A stretch of 64,000 nt of DNA. Origin: a phage. Position 1 is the stretch's first letter, and each line of letters begins with the position of its first letter. The notes beneath the pieces are model-generated. The model was not told the DNA's origin. It did not search any database and saw only the letters and a program-made list of their open reading frames with translations. The DNA is taken from sequence record NC_100372.1. One strand, 5' to 3'. This document shows positions 715 through 58,203 of this stretch, piece by piece. Position numbers and translations under genes: made by a program.

Positions 715-1269
715 TTACTCCCCGCTGTCAATAGCAAGACTCATTGCAATACGGTATGCCTCTTCTAATGGTAAGAGTCTCCCCCACACATCCCAACCGA
801 CATCAAACTGCCTGCCAAACAACTGCTGTGTGGTTCCGTGAGCATGACCGAACAGTTGGACTGATCCGTGAGGCTTTCTGTTCCACTTTGCAAACTGGTA
901 ATGGCTCATACAGATCAAATTCTTGTTGTGGCGAAGCTCGTAATAATCTACAACCTCATGACCGAACTCTTTCATAATTCTGACAGTCGTCCTTGTGTCA
1001 TGGTTACCACGAACAAGAATAATATGTCCGTTCAACATATTTAGAACATCTGGAAGCAATTTGTTGATATTCTTATCATTAGTGCACGCAATATCCCCCA
1101 AGTGAAACACAGTGTCTGCAGGTGACACAACAGAGTTCCACTTGGTGATGATTCCCGCATTCATACTGTCAAGATTGTGATCATACTGAGATCTGTGTTT
1201 TTGACATGAGTCGAACTCCATTACCCGCTGGTGGAGAAAGTGTGTGTCGCTTGTTACAAAGTATTTCAT
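715..1269 (-). CDS. Calcineurin-like metallophosphoesterase
   Basis: Motifs in order DTHF (DxH), GDIACTND (GDxxD), GNHD, GHAH. Start trimmed to the Met of MKYFVTSDTHF because the longest ORF overlaps the upstream gene. Confidence 0.7.
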   Translation of the reverse strand: MKYFVTSDTHFLHQRVMEFDSCQKHRSQYDHNLDSMNAGIITKWNSVVSPADTVFHLGDIACTNDKNINKLLPDVLNMLNGHIILVRGNHDTRTTVRIMKEFGHEVVDYYELRHNKNLICMSHYQFAKWNRKPHGSVQLFGHAHGTTQQLFGRQFDVGWDVWGRLLPLEEAYRIAMSLAIDSGE

Positions 1270-1276
1270 ACATTCC

Positions 1277-1687
1277 TCATTTAAGTTTAATGCAGTTTTT
1301 AAGCTGGCGTTCCATACGATCCACAACCCTGTCTGGAACATCATGAATGCTTTTATTACCATGGCGGTTTTCAACCACGATCACGGTATAACTATATCCA
1401 TGACTGATCGCCATGTCAATATATTCTTGCACATATTTTTCTTTTGTAAACGTATTACTTACCACGATACGGTCGTAGCCCATACGCATCATATCTTCTA
1501 CGTTATCTTTGCACCATTTTGCTGCAAGTGTTACTTTACTTGCATCCCAATTGTAATTGCCGTCATCGTCGTACCAGAACATATCGTTCTCAAAATGTGG
1601 ATACAGACCTTCTAAAGATAGCGCATTTGCCAGTGTTGATTTGCCAGACCCTGGTAGACCACGCACGATATATAGCATTTTAGACAT
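1277..1687 (-). CDS. P-loop kinase, polynucleotide 5'-kinase-like
   Basis: Walker A GLPGSGKST at the N-terminus, plus VVSNTFTKEK and VPDRVVDRM segments resembling the T4 Pnk kinase domain as recalled. Start taken at MSKMLYIVRG with a GGAGAG RBS. Confidence 0.55.
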   Translation of the reverse strand: MSKMLYIVRGLPGSGKSTLANALSLEGLYPHFENDMFWYDDDGNYNWDASKVTLAAKWCKDNVEDMMRMGYDRIVVSNTFTKEKYVQEYIDMAISHGYSYTVIVVENRHGNKSIHDVPDRVVDRMERQLKNCIKLK

Positions 1688-1787: not shown

Positions 1788-2723
1788 ATGACAAATGAGG
1801 AATGTATAATGAAGTATTTTAATGCAGACAACCTAGTTGACAAAGGTCTTGTAACCAGCAGATATTACCCGGATCTTGGGTTAAAGATCTATAAATATGC
1901 CAGAAAAGTATTCTACAACAATTTATGGCATTTGTCTCCTCGTTTGCTGGAGTGCCGAGGCATTGTTGTCGGTAATGAAGGAAATGTTGTGGCATGGCCC
2001 TTCACAAAAGTGTTTAACTTGGGAGAAAATTCCACCAACCTGCCTGACAATAAACTTGTGACGGCGGTAGAGAAAAAGAACGGATTCCTTGGTGTGGTAT
2101 CATCTCATAAAGGTGAACTATTGTTCTCAACAACCGGGTCTCTTGATTCTCCATATTGTAACCTCGCAAAGGAAACAATCCAGGAGCAATGTGGTAATTT
2201 AGATCTTATCAAGAGGGTTATGGGCCATGAAAACATGACATTCATGTTTGAAATTTGTCACCCTTCAGATCCGCATATTGTTCAGGAAGATCATGGCGCA
2301 TATTTGATAGGTTGCAGATATAATGATTCTGGAATAATGCTACCAGAAGCAGCTTTAGATGGGATTGCCAAATACCTTGGTGCAAAACGTCCTCACACTG
2401 TGCGTGAAATTCCGTTCAGCTATGCAAAAGAATTAGCTGCAGAAACAAGAGGTGAAGGGTATATGATTCGTAAGCCTTACTACCCTTATGATCTGCAGCT
2501 GAAGATCAAGTCTCCATACTATTTGGCACGGAAGGCCGTAATGAGGGGTAAAGCTTGGAAGATTTGGGATGATGATATCTTTAAACGTGTTGACGAAGAG
2601 TTTTACGGCATGGTAAACTTCATTCGTAGAAACTACACAGAAGATGTGTGGAATTGCCTCCTGGAGCAGGAACGACGTGAGATACTTGACTGCTATTTCC
2701 ACAACGAGGACTATATGCAATGA
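1788..2723 (+). CDS. ATP-dependent nucleic acid ligase (covalent nucleotidyltransferase), RNA ligase-like
   Basis: Motif I-like EKKNGF (Kx[DN]G), motif IV-like GEGYMIRKP, motif V-like LKIKSPYY; 311 aa; divergent from the kinase/phosphoesterase pair. Confidence 0.5.
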   Translation: MTNEECIMKYFNADNLVDKGLVTSRYYPDLGLKIYKYARKVFYNNLWHLSPRLLECRGIVVGNEGNVVAWPFTKVFNLGENSTNLPDNKLVTAVEKKNGFLGVVSSHKGELLFSTTGSLDSPYCNLAKETIQEQCGNLDLIKRVMGHENMTFMFEICHPSDPHIVQEDHGAYLIGCRYNDSGIMLPEAALDGIAKYLGAKRPHTVREIPFSYAKELAAETRGEGYMIRKPYYPYDLQLKIKSPYYLARKAVMRGKAWKIWDDDIFKRVDEEFYGMVNFIRRNYTEDVWNCLLEQERREILDCYFHNEDYMQ

Positions 2724-3070
2724 AGAAGTTGATTGTGTGGCTGGATGACTTGAGAGATCCGTCAAATTATGGGCTCCCAGATGCTCTTTGGCTAAAGAAT
2801 TCCTCTGAGTTTATGGATTTTATTAACGATAAGGGAAAGCTCTACAGGCGCGTTTCTGAGTGGCACATGGACAACGACCTTGGAGAGGTATTTGAAGGGT
2901 ACGATTGCCTATCTATGCTGGAGGAAAAATTTGTATTTGGTAAGCCTCCTGTAGTTGACAACGTGAAGATTTTCGTGCATACTTCTAACCCATCAGCTGC
3001 TCGTAAATTCATGCTTGCTGCTGACTCGTTTAAAAAGTTTGGAATAGAGATTAAACAAAACATCTACTGA
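2720..3070 (+). CDS. Hypothetical protein
   Basis: 116-aa ORF overlapping the upstream stop (ATGA-type coupling), same strand as neighbours. Confidence 0.4.
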   Translation: MKKLIVWLDDLRDPSNYGLPDALWLKNSSEFMDFINDKGKLYRRVSEWHMDNDLGEVFEGYDCLSMLEEKFVFGKPPVVDNVKIFVHTSNPSAARKFMLAADSFKKFGIEIKQNIY

Positions 3071-3078
3071 GGACACTT

Positions 3079-3840
3079 ATGCGACGACTGATCATTATCT
3101 CCGGTGCTGGTTTGAGCGCTGAATCTGGTATCCCAACTTTCCGATCTGGTGGCACTGCAATGTGGGAGAATTTCAGCATCGATGAGGTGTGTAACATCCA
3201 CACCTTTGCCAAGAACTATTATAAGGTTCATGACTTTTACAATGCACGGCGTGTAGCTCTGGGCAGTGTTGATCCTAACCTTGCACATCTCCGGATCGCT
3301 GAATGGTATTCCCGCTGGTCTGGTCGCGTGATCAACCTGACAACCAATGTAGATGATTTGCTGGAGCGTGCTGGTGTAAAACATGAAGATATTTTACATG
3401 TCCACGGATATTTGCCAGAAATAGTCTACGAGGATGATGAAGGGAGTAACGTCATTAAAGACATTGGATACTCTGAGGTAGATGCAAGCAAGTATACTTG
3501 GGTTAAGCCTAATGTCGTGTTCTTCGGAGAAGTAGCTCCAAAGTATACAGACATGTATGACCTGTTGACTTCTCTGACGAGCAATGATATGGTTATCCTT
3601 GTAGGGTGCTCCAACACAGTTATCAATTTTAACTGGGAGCTATTCCCTGCCTGTAATAAGGGGACCAAACTGCTGATCGTTAACAAATACGACTCACAGC
3701 ATTTAGGGGAGAATGGCATTTCACGTAGTGACATTTACCAGTATGAGGATCGCGGCATCCCAGTTTGGTTTAACGGGGCTGTTGACGCTTTCTCTGATAA
3801 AACATTCATTGACATCGTAGAAAACTTTATGGAACTGTAA
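3079..3840 (+). CDS. Sir2-family NAD-dependent deacylase / ADP-ribosyltransferase-like protein
   Basis: Canonical sirtuin N-terminal motif GAGLSAESGIPTFR; 253 aa. Confidence 0.85.
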   Translation: MRRLIIISGAGLSAESGIPTFRSGGTAMWENFSIDEVCNIHTFAKNYYKVHDFYNARRVALGSVDPNLAHLRIAEWYSRWSGRVINLTTNVDDLLERAGVKHEDILHVHGYLPEIVYEDDEGSNVIKDIGYSEVDASKYTWVKPNVVFFGEVAPKYTDMYDLLTSLTSNDMVILVGCSNTVINFNWELFPACNKGTKLLIVNKYDSQHLGENGISRSDIYQYEDRGIPVWFNGAVDAFSDKTFIDIVENFMEL

Positions 3841-3854
3841 GCGGAGGCCTTTTA

Positions 3855-4568
3855 ATGCTGAATACTAAACTGATTGACAACTTGGAAAAACTGTCTCAGC
3901 CTGAAAACTACCTTTGGTCTGCCAACTGGGTGGAAAATTGGAACCGTGTAGCAGCTAAAGTGAAAAAATCATACACACCATTCGAACTTCAGCTGAGTTT
4001 CATTGAGGAAGAGTTCAATGAAGTTTTGGAAGAGTTGGAGAAAGGTGATGGTGGGGATCATCTCCTAAAAGAGGCCTGCGATCTTCACGTTGTCACAAGT
4101 TATGCCGCTTATCTTGTTAACGATAACCATGAAAAGTGGTCAAACCTGTTTGATAATCCGCGAGGTCTTAAGTTTAAGATCGGTGAATTTTATGATACAC
4201 TGATCGCTGCGAAAAATACCTCTAAGCAAAGAGCGTCTGCTTACCGCTTAGCAGAGTTGTCGACAGCTTTGCTGTTCCAGCTTCGCGGTGATGTGTGCGG
4301 GATGATGCGGAAGGTTCTAAAATCTAATGACAGCAAGTTTGCACGCGTCAACCATCTGCGGTATTCACACGGTGCCAGTGCAGATATGCCTGCTGAACAA
4401 CTTATCGAGTTGGAGATTAAAGATCTTGAGCGACGCTTTGATGGTCGCTATGAAGGTTTTGTTGCTAAAGAAGAATTCTACAACGGAAATAAAGTTATCA
4501 TATTCCTCGACAGTAAAGGTAAGATTATGAAGCCTTCAAGCTTCAAGGATGTAACAGAATATATTTAA
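3855..4568 (+). CDS. Hypothetical protein, possible MazG-like nucleotide pyrophosphohydrolase fold
   Basis: Acidic helical segment IEEEFNEVLEELEKGDGGDHLLKEACDL resembles the MazG/HisE EExxE...D metal-binding pattern; weak. Confidence 0.4.
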   Translation: MLNTKLIDNLEKLSQPENYLWSANWVENWNRVAAKVKKSYTPFELQLSFIEEEFNEVLEELEKGDGGDHLLKEACDLHVVTSYAAYLVNDNHEKWSNLFDNPRGLKFKIGEFYDTLIAAKNTSKQRASAYRLAELSTALLFQLRGDVCGMMRKVLKSNDSKFARVNHLRYSHGASADMPAEQLIELEIKDLERRFDGRYEGFVAKEEFYNGNKVIIFLDSKGKIMKPSSFKDVTEYI

Positions 4569-4574
4569 TAACAT

Positions 4575-4603
4575 AGCCGGGGCGATCCCGGCTTTACTTG
4601 TTT
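4575..4603 (+). terminator. Candidate intrinsic terminator
   Basis: Stem agccggg / cccggct with loop gcgat, followed by ttacttgttt, just after the stop at 4566-4568. Confidence 0.5.
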
Positions 4604-4632: not shown

Positions 4633-4941
4633 ATGTACAAGCACTCCAGAGATCTTGAAAACGATGCTGTGTTTGGGGATCAGATGAAAGAATTGGTTAA
4701 ACTTATAGGTAGGATAGAGGATAAGTTTGACACTAAGATCTACATCGACAGCAAAGTATTCAACCACAAAATATGGACAAATCTGTGTGTTGGACTGCAT
4801 GGAGATAAAGATGTGGTAAATTTAGTTGTAATTAAGTTCATAGTGTGGCAGAATAAAACTATAAATTATTACGATCCGCACCTGCTTGTTTACCCGATAA
4901 AAGACCTATTAGAGAAGGAGGACTGCAATGCTGTTATTTAA
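4633..4941 (+). CDS. Hypothetical protein
   Basis: 102-aa ORF in the plus-strand block. Confidence 0.35.
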   Translation: MYKHSRDLENDAVFGDQMKELVKLIGRIEDKFDTKIYIDSKVFNHKIWTNLCVGLHGDKDVVNLVVIKFIVWQNKTINYYDPHLLVYPIKDLLEKEDCNAVI

Positions 4942-5197
4942 TCTTGCTAAACCTGTAGAAGCACACCAGTTTGACGGAAGCTCTTCATCAGTATCTGATC
5001 TGCAACGGTGGATTGATACAGGTGTGTTTACACCGTCACCTGTTCGGACCAGAGATATTCTTCGCATGTGTGAGCTTGTCGAGCCGTTTGGTAACCTGGT
5101 CTTGTACCAAGGGGATTGGTTAGTTGACTTTATGGGAGACTGGTTGGTAATGAGCAAAGAAGAGATGTTTAAAATTTTTAAGGAAGAGGCTGAGTAA
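4928..5197 (+). CDS. Hypothetical protein
   Basis: 89-aa ORF, overlaps neighbours by a few nt. Confidence 0.35.
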   Translation: MLLFNLAKPVEAHQFDGSSSSVSDLQRWIDTGVFTPSPVRTRDILRMCELVEPFGNLVLYQGDWLVDFMGDWLVMSKEEMFKIFKEEAE

Positions 5198-6480
5198 TGC
5201 ATCAGATCAAAACAACACTGTACGCACTGAACAAAGATGGCAGCTACCAACAGTGGAAAGTATTCACGGATGGTGATAAGGTTATTGTAGAGTTTGGCAA
5301 GCTTGATGGTAAACTGCAATACAAAGAGACGATCTGCACACCTAAGAACGTGGGTCGTGCCAATGAAACTACAGCTGAGCAACAGGCTGAGCTGGAAGCG
5401 ATCAGTAAGTGGGAAAAACAAGTCCGTCTGGGGTATGTTGAAAATATGGAAGATTGCGAGCAGGGTGTTGACCTTTTACCCATGCTGGTGCATGACTACC
5501 TGAAGCGTGGAAAGGCACTTAAATTACCTTGCTGGATCTTGCGTAAGTTAGATGGCCTTCGTCTACTGGTTGTTTTCCAAAACGGTGAGCCTAAATTTAT
5601 TTCCCGTGGTAATAAGTCCTACCCTATTCAAGGAAAGCTTCTGGAGCAACTTCGTTCTTTCCACTTCACCACCGGGATTAAACAGCTCGACGGAGAGATC
5701 TATATTCATGGTCTGCCTCTGCAGAAAATAGTGTCTCTTGCTAAACGTTGGCGCACACAGGAAGAGATTCAGGCCGAGATCGATAAAGACTACGAGGCAG
5801 ATAAAAAACGCCGTCATGCCGCAATTAAGGCAGGCTTATCAACATACAAAAACTTCAATAAGGTAGATATTCCTGTTGATGTTGAGCCTGTTCGTGATGA
5901 TTTGCGTTACGGAGGGTACTGTAGCTATGACTTAGAGTATCATATTTTCGACATCCCTAGTGACAAGGTATGGTGGGATCCGGAAACAGAATCTGGACGA
6001 TGCAAGGATCTTATGGATGCAGAAGATACCATTACCACTCTGATGCTTGACCATATCAAGGTTGTTGACGCAGAGCTTGCGTACACAGTTGATCATTGCG
6101 AAGAATCTGTTGGTGTATTCATGTCCGAAGGATATGAAGGTACTATCATGCGTAACTTCTGTGGTAAATACGAATACGGTCAGCGAACATCTGAAGCATT
6201 GAAATGGAAAAAGTTCAACGATGCTGAGGTGAAAGTTATTGACGTTGAGAAAGATAAGAATGATGAAGGTGTTCTTATCTGTGTTGACAAGGAAGGTATC
6301 GTTGTTAAAATGAAGATGAAAGGTACGCACGAGGAGCGTAGCTATGACAGGATGCAGGAAATGATCGGCAAGTTTGTCACCTTCAAATATCAAGCAAGGA
6401 CAGAAGACAACAACTACCAATTCCCTGTCGGCATCTGCGTCCGAAATGTTAACCCAGACACTTGGGAGGTTCTGGAATGA
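5197..6480 (+). CDS. ATP-dependent DNA ligase
   Basis: Motif I KLDGLR (KxDGxR) in ILRKLDGLRLLVV; 427 aa. Confidence 0.7.
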   Translation: MHQIKTTLYALNKDGSYQQWKVFTDGDKVIVEFGKLDGKLQYKETICTPKNVGRANETTAEQQAELEAISKWEKQVRLGYVENMEDCEQGVDLLPMLVHDYLKRGKALKLPCWILRKLDGLRLLVVFQNGEPKFISRGNKSYPIQGKLLEQLRSFHFTTGIKQLDGEIYIHGLPLQKIVSLAKRWRTQEEIQAEIDKDYEADKKRRHAAIKAGLSTYKNFNKVDIPVDVEPVRDDLRYGGYCSYDLEYHIFDIPSDKVWWDPETESGRCKDLMDAEDTITTLMLDHIKVVDAELAYTVDHCEESVGVFMSEGYEGTIMRNFCGKYEYGQRTSEALKWKKFNDAEVKVIDVEKDKNDEGVLICVDKEGIVVKMKMKGTHEERSYDRMQEMIGKFVTFKYQARTEDNNYQFPVGICVRNVNPDTWEVLE

Positions 6481-6604
6481 TGTAGGAAGGTTTAGTAGGT
6501 AACGGTAGCCAATTGAATGATGGTTTTTCAATTGGCACCTGCATAACCACATTATGCAGTGTTGTTGATCGGGTTAGTTATGAGTAAATTGGAGAGTATG
6601 AAAA

Positions 6605-7075
6605 ATGAAACTTGATAAAAATGTTCAACGAAAAGCTTTCTTGGATATGATCGCATATTCAGAAGGTACAGATAACGGTAGACAACCTACCAAGGATCGG
6701 GGCTATGATGTCATAGTCGGTGGCAAGCTGTTTAGCGATTACAGCAAGCATCCGGGTGTGTACGTTAAGCTAAATGCTAAACTTACCTCCTCTGCTGCGG
6801 GGCGCTACCAAGTTTTGGAGAAGTTTGCTAAACACTATATGAAACAGTTAGGATTACCAGATTTTGGCCCTGCCAGTCAGGATAAGATCGCACTACAATT
6901 GATCCGTGAGTGCAAGGCGCTCGATGATATTGATGAAGGTCGTATTCATCAGGCCATCCATCTTTGCAGATCCCGATGGGCAAGCCTTCCTGGTGCAGGG
7001 TACGGTCAGCATGAACAGAAGATTGAGAAGTTGATCGAGGTGTTTAAAAAGGCAGGCGGCATTGTCCTAGATTAA
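6605..7075 (+). CDS. Lytic transglycosylase endolysin, phage lambda R-like
   Basis: Strong full-length similarity to lambda R as recalled from memory: QRKAFLDMIAYSEGTDNGRQ, GYDVIVGG, AGRYQ, WASLPGAGYGQHEQK, KAGG. Confidence 0.85.
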   Translation: MKLDKNVQRKAFLDMIAYSEGTDNGRQPTKDRGYDVIVGGKLFSDYSKHPGVYVKLNAKLTSSAAGRYQVLEKFAKHYMKQLGLPDFGPASQDKIALQLIRECKALDDIDEGRIHQAIHLCRSRWASLPGAGYGQHEQKIEKLIEVFKKAGGIVLD

Positions 7076-7138
7076 TCATTGACATGACCACATGGACGTG
7101 GTATTGTTACCTAGTAAAATGTTAAGAAGGGTTTAACC

Positions 7139-7345
7139 ATGAAAGATTTTCTGTTGGCAATTTTGTTCATGGCAGCATGTCTGGCCTGTGGTGTCGTGTT
7201 TGCAGGTGAAACAGCGTATCTTGTCGATGTATATCGGGACAATGGTAAACGTATTTGCCTTTATGAAACAAGCCAAGGTGAGCTCTACGAGCTTGTTAAA
7301 CAAGGCGAGGCTGGATCTTGTCCTCGGACTCACTTCTTCGAATAA
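7139..7345 (+). CDS. Small lipoprotein
   Basis: Hydrophobic N-terminus with lipobox-like LAC/G (MKDFLLAILFMAACLACG); 68 aa; two further Cys (C40, C61) in the mature part. Confidence 0.45.
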   Translation: MKDFLLAILFMAACLACGVVFAGETAYLVDVYRDNGKRICLYETSQGELYELVKQGEAGSCPRTHFFE

Positions 7346-7356
7346 GGTTGGTAGTA

Positions 7357-7574
7357 TGGCTTTAGAAGGCACTGATTATATTCACGATTACCGTGGGAGT
7401 GCAGTGTATGTGGGCGATACTGTTGCAGTATACTACGGTTATGGTTCCCTAGAAACAGCGAAGGTCATACAGATCAAGAATGACCGTGCTAAGCTTGAAG
7501 TTTATTACTCTAATGGTGAAAGATCGATTTCTAAGTGGAAAGATGGTCATTGTATGGTCAAATTGGAGGGCTGA
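7357..7574 (+). CDS. Hypothetical protein
   Basis: Start chosen at MALEGTDY with an upstream AAGG RBS; the longer track ORF 7188-7574 overlaps the lipoprotein gene. Confidence 0.4.
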
Positions 7575-8038
7575 TGGAAGACGGACGTTTAATGAAGTCT
7601 GAACGCAGGCTTATTGTGCAGCTGATCCCAGAAACAGCTTGGTATAATAATCTCCGAAACGCTGTGAAGAAGAGTGAGTGGGATAAGATCCGTAAGAAGT
7701 GCTACAGAGAAGCCAACTATACTTGTGAGGTGTGCGGCGGTAAAGGCAGCAAACATCCGGTGGAGTGTCATGAACTTTACACTTTCGAAGAGGGAGTGAT
7801 CCGGCTTGTCGGACTGATAGCGTTGTGCCCAGATTGTCACACATCGGTGCATCCTGGGTTAGCAAATATCCGTGGAAAGTATGCTCAGGCAGTTAATCAG
7901 TTGGCTAAGGTGAATAAGATCACCAAGGGTATGGCAGAGGCCTATTACCGAGACTGCTTTGCAGAATGGCGGGAGCTTAGCAAAGTTCCTGAATGGAGAA
8001 CTGACTTTTCGTGGATAGAGGGTTACCTTGATGGCTAA
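7574..8038 (+). CDS. Putative HNH-type nuclease
   Basis: Cys/His pattern CEVCGG...ECHELY...LCPDCHTSVH; start at MEDGRLMKS overlapping the upstream stop (tgATGg). Confidence 0.4.
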   Translation: MEDGRLMKSERRLIVQLIPETAWYNNLRNAVKKSEWDKIRKKCYREANYTCEVCGGKGSKHPVECHELYTFEEGVIRLVGLIALCPDCHTSVHPGLANIRGKYAQAVNQLAKVNKITKGMAEAYYRDCFAEWRELSKVPEWRTDFSWIEGYLDG

Positions 8039-53281: not shown

Positions 53282-53821
53282 TCAACACTCTTTGTACTCC
53301 ACCACGATAATATCTATATCAAAAGTGGCAAGGTTAATAATGTCCTCTACATGTTCCCACTTCAAACCGCCTATGCCGCACCCGATCTTAGGGATGTAGA
53401 ATGGTAAAATCGACCCCTCAAATACTTCATTGACTCGCTCAAAGCCTTTCAGTATTGAGAAATATTCAGCATTAGGCCCTGGGTAGAACTGAGTATACAG
53501 ATTTATTCCGTAGACAATACCTCTCGGAGATAAGTGCTCCCAGCGGGAGAACGCGCCCAGTTTACTTAGGCAACCGTGCATAGTCATTTTATCAGCTTCC
53601 AATGCTTGAGGGAACTCACGGGCAATCTGTTTTGCTACACCCTTACCCATTGTGTGGAAGCAGTTACAACCGTGGATCAGGTGACCATCACCGCTCTTAA
53701 AAAGGGAGATTAAATCTCCCTCTACAGTATCAATAATCACGATATTCCAGCTCCTCTTCCACAATTTCAAAAAACTCAGTCCAGCACTGTGGCATATTGG
53801 AGTTACCGAAGTGGCTTTCAT
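53282..53821 (-). CDS. Putative macro-domain (ADP-ribose binding/processing) protein
   Basis: VIIDTVEGDLISL, IHGCNCFHTMGKGVAKQIAREF and PKIGCGIGGL resemble the macro-domain GDIT...NAAN...GGGV...G-rich loop pattern; start uncertain (overlaps the upstream ORF). Confidence 0.45.
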   Translation of the reverse strand: MKATSVTPICHSAGLSFLKLWKRSWNIVIIDTVEGDLISLFKSGDGHLIHGCNCFHTMGKGVAKQIAREFPQALEADKMTMHGCLSKLGAFSRWEHLSPRGIVYGINLYTQFYPGPNAEYFSILKGFERVNEVFEGSILPFYIPKIGCGIGGLKWEHVEDIINLATFDIDIIVVEYKEC

Positions 53822-57252: not shown

Positions 57253-57628
57253 TCATCAGATCTGCCATAGCGTCACCAACGAAGAGGACAACCACGTCGT
57301 TGACAGCGTCAGCATCATCTTTATTGATGTTGCTGAATTTGGGGCACACTGCAATGACCATATAGACCCCGTTGCCCAACTGAACAGTGCGTGTAGTGCA
57401 CATTAGTGTGGTGCTTGTGCCTTCTTTAAAGGCAAATCCTTGCAGACGTTCTTCCAGAGAGTCACCTGTGGATTTCAACAAGGCAAGATCGCCCAATGCG
57501 TAGGTAGTGTCCTCATAGGTCAGTCCAGAGGTCAATGTTGCCTTTCCATCAGAAACTATAATAACCCCATCGGCACCGTCAAGCTCAGAGGCTTCAAAGA
57601 TATTAATATCCCAAATGTTTTTCATCAC
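57224..57628 (-). CDS. Hypothetical protein
   Basis: 134-aa ORF. Confidence 0.4.
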   Translation of the reverse strand: MMKNIWDINIFEASELDGADGVIIVSDGKATLTSGLTYEDTTYALGDLALLKSTGDSLEERLQGFAFKEGTSTTLMCTTRTVQLGNGVYMVIAVCPKFSNINKDDADAVNDVVVLFVGDAMADLMNAGEAANED

Positions 57629-57945
57629 GCTTCCTCGTCATCTAATGAGTTGAAGATTTCACCGAAGTATTCTAAGACTTCCAGCTCACGGGTGGTGCAG
57701 AAAACACAGTCCCCGTTGTCATCTTCGATAACGGCCTCTTTACCAAGAACATCCACTTCAAATTCGTCGTTTAACAGAACGGAACCTGTGTAAACTTTAT
57801 CTGCCGTGCAGTCCCGAAAAGCAGAGTCCTTCTCCAAGTAGTCTGGCTTAACCTTGGCTTTAATTCGTTGATATTGTTTGGTCATTGCTGTGGTCCCCTT
57901 TCGTTTTGATAGGGCCATTATATTAGGCCCTATCGCTATTGTCAA
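57625..57945 (-). CDS. Hypothetical protein, paralog family C
   Basis: AFRDCTADKVYTGS...DDNGDCVFCTTRELEV; paralogous to 57949-58203. Confidence 0.4.
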   Translation of the reverse strand: MTIAIGPNIMALSKRKGTTAMTKQYQRIKAKVKPDYLEKDSAFRDCTADKVYTGSVLLNDEFEVDVLGKEAVIEDDNGDCVFCTTRELEVLEYFGEIFNSLDDEEA

Positions 57946-57948
57946 GTA

Positions 57949-58203
57949 TTAATGCTCAGGTTTTACAAAAACTACTTCGTTAACAGTGCACCAGACAGAA
58001 TCTCCTTCATCATCTTTAAAGGTAAGACACTGGGCTGAGTTTTCCAACTCATCGAGCTCTTCTTGTGATAAATAGGTCCCTTCTTCCAGAAGAGCTTTTA
58101 CCAGAGGGTTCTCACAAAACTCTGCTTCATAAACTGTACCGATTGTGCAATCTTTAAAAGCTCGGTCATTTGCAACGCACTCTGGCTTCAAAGTGATTTT
58201 CAT
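57949..58203 (-). CDS. Hypothetical protein, paralog family C
   Basis: AFKDCTIGTVYEAE...DDEGDSVWCTVNEVVFV. Confidence 0.4.
   Translation of the reverse strand: MKITLKPECVANDRAFKDCTIGTVYEAEFCENPLVKALLEEGTYLSQEELDELENSAQCLTFKDDEGDSVWCTVNEVVFVKPEH

What the first reader, a model, noticed from the sequence alone, without database searches (positions are those of the whole stretch)
3079..3840. Sir2-family protein in a phage early region
The sirtuin motif GAGLSAESGIPTFR is unambiguous. Sir2 domains are best known in bacterial anti-phage systems as NAD-depleting effectors; a phage-encoded copy could deacylate host proteins, ADP-ribosylate targets or interfere with NAD-based immunity. A putative macro-domain protein elsewhere in the window (53282-53821) hints at an ADP-ribose/NAD theme, and the neighbouring gene 3855-4568 shows a weak MazG-like signature.
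Basis: partly seen in the sequence, partly recalled or inferred. Interest (0 to 1): 0.5.

Follow-up and report, generated by a model that had tools for sequence, protein, structure and literature searches.

The report
Phage sirtuin in RNA-repair operon
The gene is a real, intact sirtuin of an rV5-like E. coli phage, but it is already annotated in about a thousand phage genomes, and its position inside an RNA-repair gene cluster, with the idea that it removes RNA 2'-phosphates using NAD+, was published in 2022 and remains untested.

Summary
Confirmed. ORF 3079-3840 (+), 253 aa, is a Sir2-family protein (Pfam SIR2 E=1e-26). Its model superposes on E. coli CobB, and the catalytic His109, Asn90 and Asp92 are intact. 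It is under purifying selection (dN/dS about 0.1).

The window is an rV5/FV3-like myophage. The gene is annotated "Sir2-like" in most relatives and has homologues in 1012 of 50,697 phage records, including T5 gene T5.102.

The gene is third in a four-gene unit: T4-type RNA ligase, cREC domain, Sir2, then a MazG/dimeric-dUTPase-like pyrophosphatase, ended by a hairpin. A polynucleotide-kinase-like gene and a metallophosphoesterase gene are transcribed divergently upstream.

Iyer et al. 2022 (PMC9503650) describe this same neighbourhood, name phage V5, and predict a KptA/Tpt1-like removal of RNA 2'-phosphate.

What I add:
- The clade looks phage-restricted.
- It has lost the four zinc cysteines.
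- It carries Thr in place of the TQNxD glutamine.
- It keeps the SIRT5-type YxxR anion pocket.

It matches no defence Sir2 model. The macro ORF (minus strand, 50 kb away) is DarG-like and probably unrelated. The function is untested, and lysine deacylation remains a strong rival. Already known; modest interest.

The parts
3079..3840 (+). Sir2-family (class III-like, zinc-less) sirtuin, 253 aa. Key residues: GAGLSAESGIPTFR 9-22; Y54/R57 (YxxR); T88-T89-N90-V91-D92; H109-G110; K143-PNVVFFGE-151; G176-C-S-N179.
2720..3070 (+). cREC_REC (cyclic-phosphate processing receiver) domain protein, 116 aa. Its start overlaps the ligase stop (ATGA).
   Evidence: Pfam PF20274 E=4.5e-14, 53 bits against a cutoff of 27; PHROG 1479; annotated the same way in phage HMD-6.
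1788..2723 (+). T4 Rnl1-type ATP-dependent RNA ligase, 311 aa; first gene of the unit.
   Evidence: Pfam RNA_lig_T4_1 E=1.1e-14; PHROG 562 E=7e-66; annotation in relatives.
3855..4568 (+). All-alpha NTP pyrophosphohydrolase (MazG / dimeric dUTPase-like), 237 aa, with a C-terminal beta-hairpin extension; last gene of the unit.
4575..4593 (.). G+C-rich hairpin scored as terminator-like on both strands; ends the ligase-cREC-Sir2-pyrophosphatase unit.
1277..1687 (-). P-loop polynucleotide-kinase-like protein (AAA_33), divergently transcribed.
   Evidence: Pfam AAA_33 E=2.8e-10; PHROG 2071 and PHROG 505 'polynucleotide kinase'; annotated "3'-phosphatase 5'-polynucleotide kinase" in HMD-6.
715..1269 (-). 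Calcineurin-like metallophosphoesterase, downstream of the kinase on the minus strand.
   Evidence: Pfam Metallophos E=1.9e-5, above cutoff; PHROG 547 E=8e-50; end coordinate taken from the HMD-6 annotation.
5197..6480 (+). ATP-dependent DNA ligase. It stays next to the sirtuin in Mydo-like and ~147-153 kb phages. Its membership of the functional module is uncertain.
   Evidence: Pfam DNA_ligase_A_M and DNA_ligase_OB_2; linkage table.

Best explanation
The gene encodes an active, NAD+-consuming sirtuin of a phage-restricted, zinc-less offshoot of class III (CobB/SIRT5-type) sirtuins. It is co-transcribed with a T4-type RNA ligase, a cREC phosphoesterase-like domain and a MazG/dUTPase-like pyrophosphatase, and it lies beside a polynucleotide-kinase-like gene and a metallophosphoesterase gene. 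Together these form a heal-and-seal module for RNAs, typically tRNAs, cut by host metal-independent nucleases that leave 2',3'-cyclic phosphate and 5'-OH ends.

The most likely reaction is the one proposed by Iyer et al. 2022, a functional analogue of Tpt1/KptA. An RNA 2'-phosphate, left when a cyclic phosphate is opened, attacks C1'' of NAD+ and releases nicotinamide. [quoted passage not shown] This parallels normal sirtuin chemistry: acyl oxygen attacks C1'', then the His-assisted 2''-OH attacks the acyl carbon. The same His/Asn/Asp set would therefore serve. The invariant Tyr54/Arg57 anion pocket could hold the phosphate. The phosphoesterases and the pyrophosphatase would either prepare the RNA end or break down the ADP-ribose by-product.

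Shown here: sirtuin identity, intact catalytic residues, operon structure, conserved linkage, phage restriction and purifying selection. Inferred: the substrate and every chemical step.
For: Identity and intactness.

Operon: start/stop overlap with cREC, 8-nt and 14-nt intergenic gaps, Shine-Dalgarno motifs, and a hairpin at 4575-4593.

Linkage in 58 phage loci. 14 have Rnl1, kinase, metallophosphoesterase, pyrophosphatase or DNA ligase within about 4 kb, with shuffled gene order, in rV5-like, Mydo/Ro1-like and 147-153 kb groups whose sirtuins are only 45-57% identical. About 31 T5-like loci have a HAD_SAK_2 'Swiss-army-knife RNA repair' phosphatase (PF18143, E=4e-20) 0.8-1.3 kb downstream. 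The same neighbourhood and prediction are published with phage V5 named (PMC9503650 section 3.7.3).

Clade-specific changes near the reaction centre: Gln to Thr in TQNxD, and loss of the Cys4 zinc site. YxxR is invariant and aligns with SIRT5 Y102/R105.

NAMPT with or without PRPP synthetase lies next to homologues in L056, L057 and L059, consistent with real NAD+ turnover that releases nicotinamide. The Tpt1 two-step mechanism is taken from the PMC11417386 abstract.
Against: No experiment exists for any member of this clade. All evidence for an RNA substrate is guilt by association, and phage early genes cluster by timing as well as by function.

The residues of the acyl-lysine site (F21, FGE loop, His109, YxxR) are all retained, so sequence does not exclude an ordinary deacylase.

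The kinase, metallophosphoesterase and Rnl1 could on their own heal and seal 2',3'>P / 5'-OH breaks without ever making a 2'-phosphate, as T4 does (my own knowledge).

T5-like phages, the largest group of carriers, seem to lack an Rnl1-type ligase: Salmonella phages give 289 sirtuin hits but 14 ligase hits. Many Rnl1-bearing phages (Pseudomonas, Streptomyces) lack the sirtuin, so coupling to ligation is facultative.

The 'MazG' neighbour is structurally closest to dimeric dUTPases and may be plain nucleotide metabolism. E. coli K-12 has its own KptA (my own knowledge).
Confidence: 0.4

Rival explanations
1. It is an ordinary NAD+-dependent protein lysine deacylase (desuccinylase, demalonylase or deacetylase, like CobB/SIRT5) acting on host or phage proteins. 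Examples would be activating acetyl-CoA synthetase or other acyl-lysine-inhibited enzymes, as Skliros et al. 2016 proposed for vibriophage Sir2/CobB. The neighbouring genes would be co-expressed early functions only.
For: The closest sequences and structures are CobB and SIRT5. The catalytic His/Asn/Asp, the FGE loop and the succinyl-binding YxxR motif are all conserved. NAMPT adjacency in some phages fits nicotinamide recycling for any sirtuin reaction. The hypothesis is published in PMC5107563. Canonical His-bearing sirtuins that have been assayed generally show some deacylase activity (my own knowledge).
Against: Three different conserved neighbourhoods all contain RNA-end-processing domains. 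All NCBIfam CobB models score far below their cutoffs, for example 121 against 243 bits. The clade has lost the zinc cysteines and the conserved Gln next to the nicotinamide ribose. The clade is essentially absent from cellular genomes, and hosts already have CobB.
Confidence: 0.3
2. It ADP-ribosylates nucleic-acid ends (5'- or 3'-phosphate capping, as KptA/TRPT1 can do) or acts on NAD-capped RNA. The aim would be to mark or protect RNA ends rather than remove a 2'-phosphate.
For: It shares the RNA-repair context above. Tpt1/KptA enzymes also ADP-ribosylate 5'-phosphorylated ends (abstracts of PMC12678800 and PMC10415124). An anion-binding YxxR pocket is present.
Against: No adjacent eraser (macro or NADAR) in this window; the macro ORF is 50 kb away. 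No precedent for a sirtuin modifying RNA. Purely inferential.
Confidence: 0.12
3. It is a counter-defence or metabolic NAD+ enzyme: a NADase, or an enzyme that makes or destroys ADP-ribose-derived small molecules. This is the first reader's idea of interference with NAD-based immunity such as Thoeris or DSR.
For: It is an NAD+-binding enzyme in a phage. cREC and Nudix/MazG partners have also been proposed to process cyclic ADP-ribose derivatives (PMC7824862). NAMPT and NADAR are neighbours in some relatives.
Against: No similarity to any defence Sir2 model. A phage gains nothing obvious from depleting NAD+. A sirtuin consumes NAD+ and is not known to degrade signalling nucleotides. There is no regulatory or sensor domain.
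Confidence: 0.1

Closest known systems
Sirtuin-centred phage RNA-repair neighbourhood, type 2 ('Escherichia phage V5 / Proteus phage Mydo') of Iyer, Burroughs, Anantharaman and Aravind 2022 (PMC9503650, section 3.7.3)
   Same: Same phage group (the window is 94-99.5% identical in DNA to rV5/FV3-like phages). Same gene set: T4-like RNA ligase, cREC, nucleotide kinase, MazG-superfamily pyrophosphatase, calcineurin-like phosphoesterase and sirtuin.
   Different: Nothing substantive; this is that system. Details added here: Gln to Thr in TQNxD, invariant YxxR, phage restriction, operon boundaries, dN/dS, and the facultative link to Rnl1.
E. coli CobB and human SIRT5 (class III sirtuins)
   Same: Rossmann plus small-domain fold (TM 0.75-0.84). 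GAGxSxxSGIPxFR, N and D of the TQNxD motif, the HG catalytic His, the FGE loop, and the YxxR motif that binds the succinyl carboxylate.
   Different: About 24-27% identity. No zinc-binding cysteines, although the ribbon is kept. Thr replaces the conserved Gln. The VxP substrate loop reads V-I-N-F. A C-terminal extension is present. CobB family models score below their curated cutoffs. The context is RNA repair rather than metabolic regulation.
Tpt1/KptA RNA 2'-phosphotransferase
   Same: [quoted passage not shown]
   Different: Unrelated fold (ART versus sirtuin Rossmann). At most a functional analogue, and the activity is unproven.
Phage T5 gene T5.102 and vibriophage KVP40/phiSt2 Sir2/CobB
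   Same: Homologues: 58% identity to T5.102 and about 45% to the KVP40-type protein. Zinc-site loss was already noted for the vibriophage proteins (PMC5107563).
   Different: The neighbours differ. T5 has HAD_SAK_2 and two DUF7415 genes and no Rnl1. In other relatives (loci L056, L057, L059) the sirtuin lies beside NAD-salvage genes (NAMPT).
Defence-associated Sir2 NADases (ThsA, DSR1/2, Sir2-HerA, SPARSA)
   Same: Sir2 superfamily and NAD+ binding.
   Different: No PADLOC model hit. Pfam SIR2_2 scores only E=0.047, below cutoff. Single domain, no sensor or partner, and phage-encoded.

Membership tests
Sir2/sirtuin superfamily (Pfam PF02146) | Significant profile match over the whole catalytic core | tested here: met
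   E=1.1e-26, 94.3 bits against a cutoff of 24, profile positions 1-178 of 180.
Sir2/sirtuin superfamily (Pfam PF02146) | NAD-binding GAGxS...GIPxFR motif, Asn and Asp of the (T)QNxD motif, and the catalytic His of HG | tested here: met
   G9-A10-G11, S16, G17, F21, R22, N90, D92 and H109 are invariant. H and N are 150/150 and D is 145/150 in the representative alignment.
Sir2/sirtuin superfamily (Pfam PF02146) | Cys4 zinc-binding module between HG and FGE | tested here: not met
   0 Cys in residues 111-142 here. 113 of 120 close homologues have 0-1 Cys, although segment length (31-39 aa) and the modelled beta-ribbon are kept. This is a variant feature and does not argue against the fold.
Sir2/sirtuin superfamily (Pfam PF02146) | Gln of the TQNxD motif | tested here: not met
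   T89 is invariant in the clade. The 45-member NJ clade has Thr 39, Ala 3, Ser 3; outside it Gln predominates.
Class III sirtuins (CobB/SIRT5) | Closest relatives by sequence and structure are class III, and the YxxR motif is present | tested here: met
   Top PDB hits are SIRT5, CobB and Sir2Af1. Y54/R57 align with SIRT5 Y102/R105 and are invariant. SIRT5 numbering is from my own knowledge.
Class III sirtuins (CobB/SIRT5) | Reaches the NCBIfam CobB/deacylase curated cutoff | tested here: not met
   Best 120.9 bits against a cutoff of 243 (NF001753); CobB equivalog 102 against 320.
Class III sirtuins (CobB/SIRT5) | NAD+-dependent lysine deacylase activity | not testable with these tools
   Needs an enzyme assay.
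Phage sirtuin RNA-repair neighbourhood type 2 (PMC9503650) | [quoted passage not shown] | tested here: met
   All five partners lie within 2.4 kb. The same set is seen in 14 loci of three phage groups.
Tpt1/KptA RNA 2'-phosphotransferase | ADP-ribosyltransferase (ART) fold of the KptA family | tested here: not met
   The fold is sirtuin/Rossmann. It can only be a functional analogue.
Tpt1/KptA RNA 2'-phosphotransferase | [quoted passage not shown] | not testable with these tools
   Needs biochemistry or yeast tpt1-delta complementation.
Defence-associated Sir2 NADases (ThsA, DSR, Sir2-HerA, SPARSA) | Match to defence Sir2 models and fusion or adjacency to a sensor or partner (SLOG, HerA, pAgo, TIR) | tested here: not met
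   No PADLOC hit at E<=0.01. Single-domain protein of 253 aa. The neighbours are RNA-repair genes.
SirTM (macro-linked ADP-ribosylating sirtuins) | Operonic macro-domain partner and replacement of the catalytic His (the latter from my own knowledge) | tested here: not met
   The only macro ORF is at 53282-53821 on the minus strand, about 50 kb away. His109 is present.

The most novel reading that the evidence does not exclude
The phage sirtuin clade is a convergent, non-ART RNA 2'-phosphotransferase. It would be the first sirtuin whose physiological substrate is a nucleic-acid phosphate. The SIRT5-type YxxR anion pocket would be re-used to hold the RNA phosphate, and the Gln-to-Thr change would make room for it at the nicotinamide ribose. 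[quoted passage not shown] The core idea is already a published prediction (PMC9503650). Only the residue-level reading is added here.
Probability: 0.3. Interest if true: 0.7.

Novelty: already known. Interest (0 to 1): 0.3.

Why it matters
If the Tpt1-like prediction is right, sirtuin chemistry would extend from acyl-lysine to RNA phosphate. It would also reveal an NAD+-dependent branch of phage tRNA repair that counters host anticodon nucleases, carried by very common coliphages (T5-like, rV5-like, phi92-like). That would bear on how these phages escape RNA-targeting defences and on their NAD+ budget during infection. As a genome-scan finding, however, it re-discovers a gene annotated since T5 and KVP40 were sequenced, and a hypothesis published in 2022. 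Its value is as a clear, cheap experimental target rather than a discovery.

Tried and rejected
- PDB sequence searches with the RNA ligase and the MazG-like protein found nothing useful, so I could not tell whether the ligase is T4 Rnl1-like (no 2'-PO4 needed) or Trl1-like (2'-PO4 needed).
It was rerun with a shallower alignment, and only one of five models was confident.
- Burroughs and Aravind 2016 is not held. No paper on SIRT5 Q140L was found, so the role of the TQN glutamine rests on my own memory.
- tblastn probes for NAMPT, PRPP synthetase, HAD_SAK and NADAR found nothing in the window. ARAGORN found no tRNA genes in the window, although relatives carry tRNA-Met/Tyr/Arg 4-5 kb upstream of the module, beyond the window's 5' end.
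- Rejected: a defence-type Sir2; a SirTM-macro pair (macro distant, His present); a decayed or inactive gene (dN/dS about 0.1, invariant catalytic residues); a recent transfer from the host (GC 44% against 43% for the window; the clade signature occurs once among representative genomes of 185,579 species, on a phage-like MAG contig).
- The absence of the conserved Pro in the VxP loop was considered as evidence against peptide binding. I dropped it because Plasmodium Sir2A in the same output also lacks it, and it is an active deacylase (my own knowledge).

Full report
**Observation**

The window carries an ATG-initiated ORF at 3079-3840 on the + strand. It encodes 253 aa and has a GAGGA Shine-Dalgarno motif 6 nt upstream. 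The quoted motif GAGLSAESGIPTFR is residues 9-22.

- The protein matches Pfam SIR2 (PF02146) at E=1.1e-26 over the whole profile and PHROG 2162 'Sir2' at E=8.7e-109.
- Against solved structures the best sequence relatives are human SIRT5, E. coli CobB and Archaeoglobus Sir2Af1, E about 5e-21.
- An AlphaFold2 model built on 29 homologues has mean pLDDT 89. Its best Foldseek match is CobB (E=2e-18, TM 0.75-0.84).
- The gene is under purifying selection: dN/dS is 0.12 and 0.07 against two relatives.

**Where the window comes from**

The 1.9 kb around the gene is 94-99.5% identical to more than 100 rV5/FV3-like E. coli myophages (Vequintavirinae). In most of these the gene is already labelled 'Sir2-like' or 'NAD-dependent deacetylase'. 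One record encodes a 100% identical protein called 'sirtuin-5-like'.

A protein search of 50,697 phage records finds relatives in 1012 of them, including T5, Eps7, SP15, phi92, KVP40 and the jumbo phage CBB. The T5 gene is T5.102, at 58% identity.

**Catalytic residues**

In an alignment of 29 phage homologues the following are invariant:
- G9-A10-G11, S16, G17, F21, R22 (NAD binding)
- N90 and D92
- K143-P144, F148-F149, E151
- G176, S178, N179

In a 150-sequence alignment of family representatives, His109 and Asn90 are conserved 150/150. The refutation test 'loss of catalytic residues' therefore fails, and the enzyme looks active.

**Clade signatures**

Three features mark the clade.
1. There are no zinc-binding cysteines between HG and FGE. 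113 of 120 close homologues have 0-1 Cys. The segment length and the modelled beta-ribbon are nevertheless retained.
2. The glutamine of the canonical TQNxD motif is Thr (T88-T89-N90-V91-D92). In the representative set TQN goes with four Cys and TTN goes with none.
3. F53-Y54-x-x-R57-R58 is invariant. In the HMMER alignment it lines up with SIRT5 F101-Y102-x-x-R105. In SIRT5 those residues bind the succinyl carboxylate (numbering and role from my own knowledge).

A crude NJ tree gives a 45-member clade that contains the window protein. All members are zinc-less, with Thr/Ala/Ser at the Gln position.

A motif-based scan of one genome per 185,579 bacterial and archaeal species found this signature once. 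That hit is on a MAG contig that reads like a T4-like phage, carrying NADAR, NAMPT, the sirtuin, endonuclease VII and NrdD/G. The clade therefore looks phage-restricted, with the caveat that the scan uses exact peptide patterns. Zinc-site loss in vibriophage Sir2/CobB was already reported (PMC5107563).

| Coordinates | Strand | Gene | Evidence |
|---|---|---|---|
| 1788-2723 | + | T4 Rnl1-type RNA ligase | Pfam E=1e-14; PHROG 562 E=7e-66 |
| 2720-3070 | + | cREC_REC domain; start overlaps the ligase stop | PF20274 E=4.5e-14 |
| 3079-3840 | + | Sirtuin, 8 nt after cREC | see above |
| 3855-4568 | + | All-alpha NTP pyrophosphohydrolase, 14 nt after the sirtuin | see below |
| 4575-4593 | both | G+C-rich hairpin, terminator-like | |
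| 1277-1687 | - | P-loop polynucleotide-kinase-like gene, divergent | AAA_33; PHROG 505 |
| 715-1269 | - | Calcineurin-like metallophosphoesterase | Pfam, PHROG 547 |
| 5197-6480 | + | ATP-dependent DNA ligase | Pfam |

These assignments rest.

The pyrophosphatase call rests on several lines:
- PHROG 671, E=5e-22.
- Invariant EExxE...D and SNDxK motifs across three phage groups.

Pfam alone is sub-threshold (E=0.084), and the model is only moderately confident (pLDDT 74).

**Is the linkage conserved?**

I examined 58 phage loci, 56 of them from IMG/VR.
- 14 loci carry the ligase, kinase, phosphoesterase, pyrophosphatase or DNA-ligase set within about 4 kb of the sirtuin. Gene order is rearranged, and the loci come from three groups (rV5-like, Mydo/Ro1-like, 147-153 kb phages) whose sirtuins are only 45-57% identical to this one.
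- About 31 T5-like loci instead have a HAD_SAK_2 domain ('HAD domain in Swiss Army Knife RNA repair proteins', E=4e-20) 0.8-1.3 kb downstream, plus two DUF7415 genes.
- Two loci, and the MAG contig, have NAMPT, with PRPP synthetase or NADAR in some, beside the sirtuin.
- Nine loci have neighbours of unknown function.

The association with RNA-end-processing domains is real and recurs in independent arrangements.

It is not obligatory for ligation. The Rnl1-type ligase has a very different host spread from the sirtuin: Pseudomonas 178, Streptomyces 127 and Salmonella 14, against 289 Salmonella phages for the sirtuin. T5-like carriers therefore seem to lack a ligase of this type.

**What is already published**

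[quoted passage not shown] The third is the SP15 (T5-like) HAD association. They propose that the sirtuin acts like KptA and removes 2'-phosphates derived from 2',3'-cyclic phosphate ends.

Skliros et al. 2016 (PMC5107563) proposed instead a deacetylase that activates acetyl-CoA synthetase, coupled to NAMPT recycling.

Five literature searches found no biochemical or genetic test of any phage sirtuin of this clade.

**Mechanism**

I commit, at about 0.4, to the Tpt1-analogue reading. The rest of the module heals and seals nuclease-cut RNA. The sirtuin uses NAD+ to take off a 2'-phosphate. [quoted passage not shown]

The chemistry is a close parallel of the sirtuin reaction. An oxygen nucleophile attacks C1'' with loss of nicotinamide, then the ribose 2''-OH attacks the acyl carbon or the phosphorus. 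The Tpt1 mechanism is from the PMC11417386 abstract; the sirtuin mechanism is from my own knowledge. Retention of His109 is therefore expected under both models and does not discriminate between them.

The invariant YxxR pocket fits an anionic substrate, either a phosphate or an acidic acyl group. The Gln-to-Thr change lies next to the nicotinamide ribose (my own knowledge). These are inferences and were not tested.

The main rival, at about 0.3, is a plain lysine deacylase, because every residue of the acyl-lysine site is retained and the closest relatives are CobB and SIRT5. Lesser rivals are RNA-end ADP-ribosylation (0.12) and an NAD/ADPr small-molecule or counter-defence role (0.1).

The protein matches no PADLOC defence model and has no sensor domain, so the Thoeris/DSR analogy is weak.

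The macro ORF is real (Pfam Macro E=2e-7, above cutoff). It lies on the minus strand about 50 kb away and is DarG-like (NCBIfam 2.6e-11, PADLOC 2e-13). Vequintavirinae are known to carry a NADAR anti-DarTG1 factor (PMC11825919). The macro ORF could be an analogous anti-DarT2 factor, unrelated to the sirtuin operon.

**Verdict**

This is a correct identification of an intact phage sirtuin. The gene, its zinc-less character, its RNA-repair neighbourhood and the leading functional hypothesis are all already in the literature or in public annotation. Novelty: already known. Interest is modest (0.3). It rests on the fact that the function is still experimentally open and easy to test.

Noticed in passing
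window 53282-53821 (minus strand): Stand-alone macro-domain ORF, 179 aa, most similar to the DarG antitoxin macrodomain (NCBIfam 2.6e-11, PADLOC DarG 2e-13, Pfam Macro 2e-7). It may be an orphan anti-DarT2 counter-defence gene, by analogy with the NADAR AdfN factors reported in Vequintavirinae (PMC11825919).
   Followed up: partly
window 4633-4941 and 4928-5197 (+): Two small ORFs of unknown function (PHROG 7684 and 14585) lie between the pyrophosphatase and the DNA ligase. Both stay within 4 kb of the sirtuin in Mydo-like and 147-153 kb phage loci despite gene-order shuffling.
   Followed up: partly
L058 (phage T5, NC_005859) 7089-7595; record 57588-58094: T5.105 is annotated 'Sir2 (NAD-dependent deacetylase)' in RefSeq but is a HAD_SAK_2 phosphatase domain (PF18143, E=4e-20). 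The real sirtuin is T5.102. Two DUF7415 genes (T5.106, T5.107) follow in the same unit.
   Followed up: yes
L056 6057-7493; L057 3031-4836 and 5460-6335; L059 4664-5158 and 6086-7528: In some T4-like or large-phage contigs the sirtuin homologue sits beside nicotinamide phosphoribosyltransferase, with PRPP synthetase in L057. L059 also has an ORF that I read as NADAR from its sequence motif only. This links the sirtuin to NAD salvage rather than to RNA ligase.
   Followed up: partly
L032 4712-7457, L043 4461-7736, L047 7274-7999: In phi92-like and other loci the sirtuin is preceded by a DUF7275/DUF7277 protein and by an unannotated ORF of about 220-240 aa starting with an 'FDGSG'-type motif reminiscent of SAM-dependent methyltransferases. 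That ORF has no Pfam hit.
   Followed up: partly
[not shown]
   Followed up: partly
public records matched: Probable database errors. 18-25 records named 'Campylobacter phage' are near-identical to E. coli rV5-like phages. The sirtuin homologue of Klebsiella phage vB_Kpn_3 is named 'tail assembly protein' (P0068).
   Followed up: no
window 6480-6605 versus L001 9935-10651: Phage HMD-6 has an HNH endonuclease gene between the DNA ligase and the lysozyme. The window goes straight from the ligase (ends 6480) to the lysozyme-like ORF (6605-7075), so that homing-endonuclease insertion is absent here.
   Followed up: no
L001 359-1080 (phage HMD-6), upstream of the window's 5' end: Relatives carry tRNA-Met, tRNA-Tyr and tRNA-Arg genes about 3-4 kb upstream of the RNA-repair module. 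The window itself has no tRNA genes.
   Followed up: no
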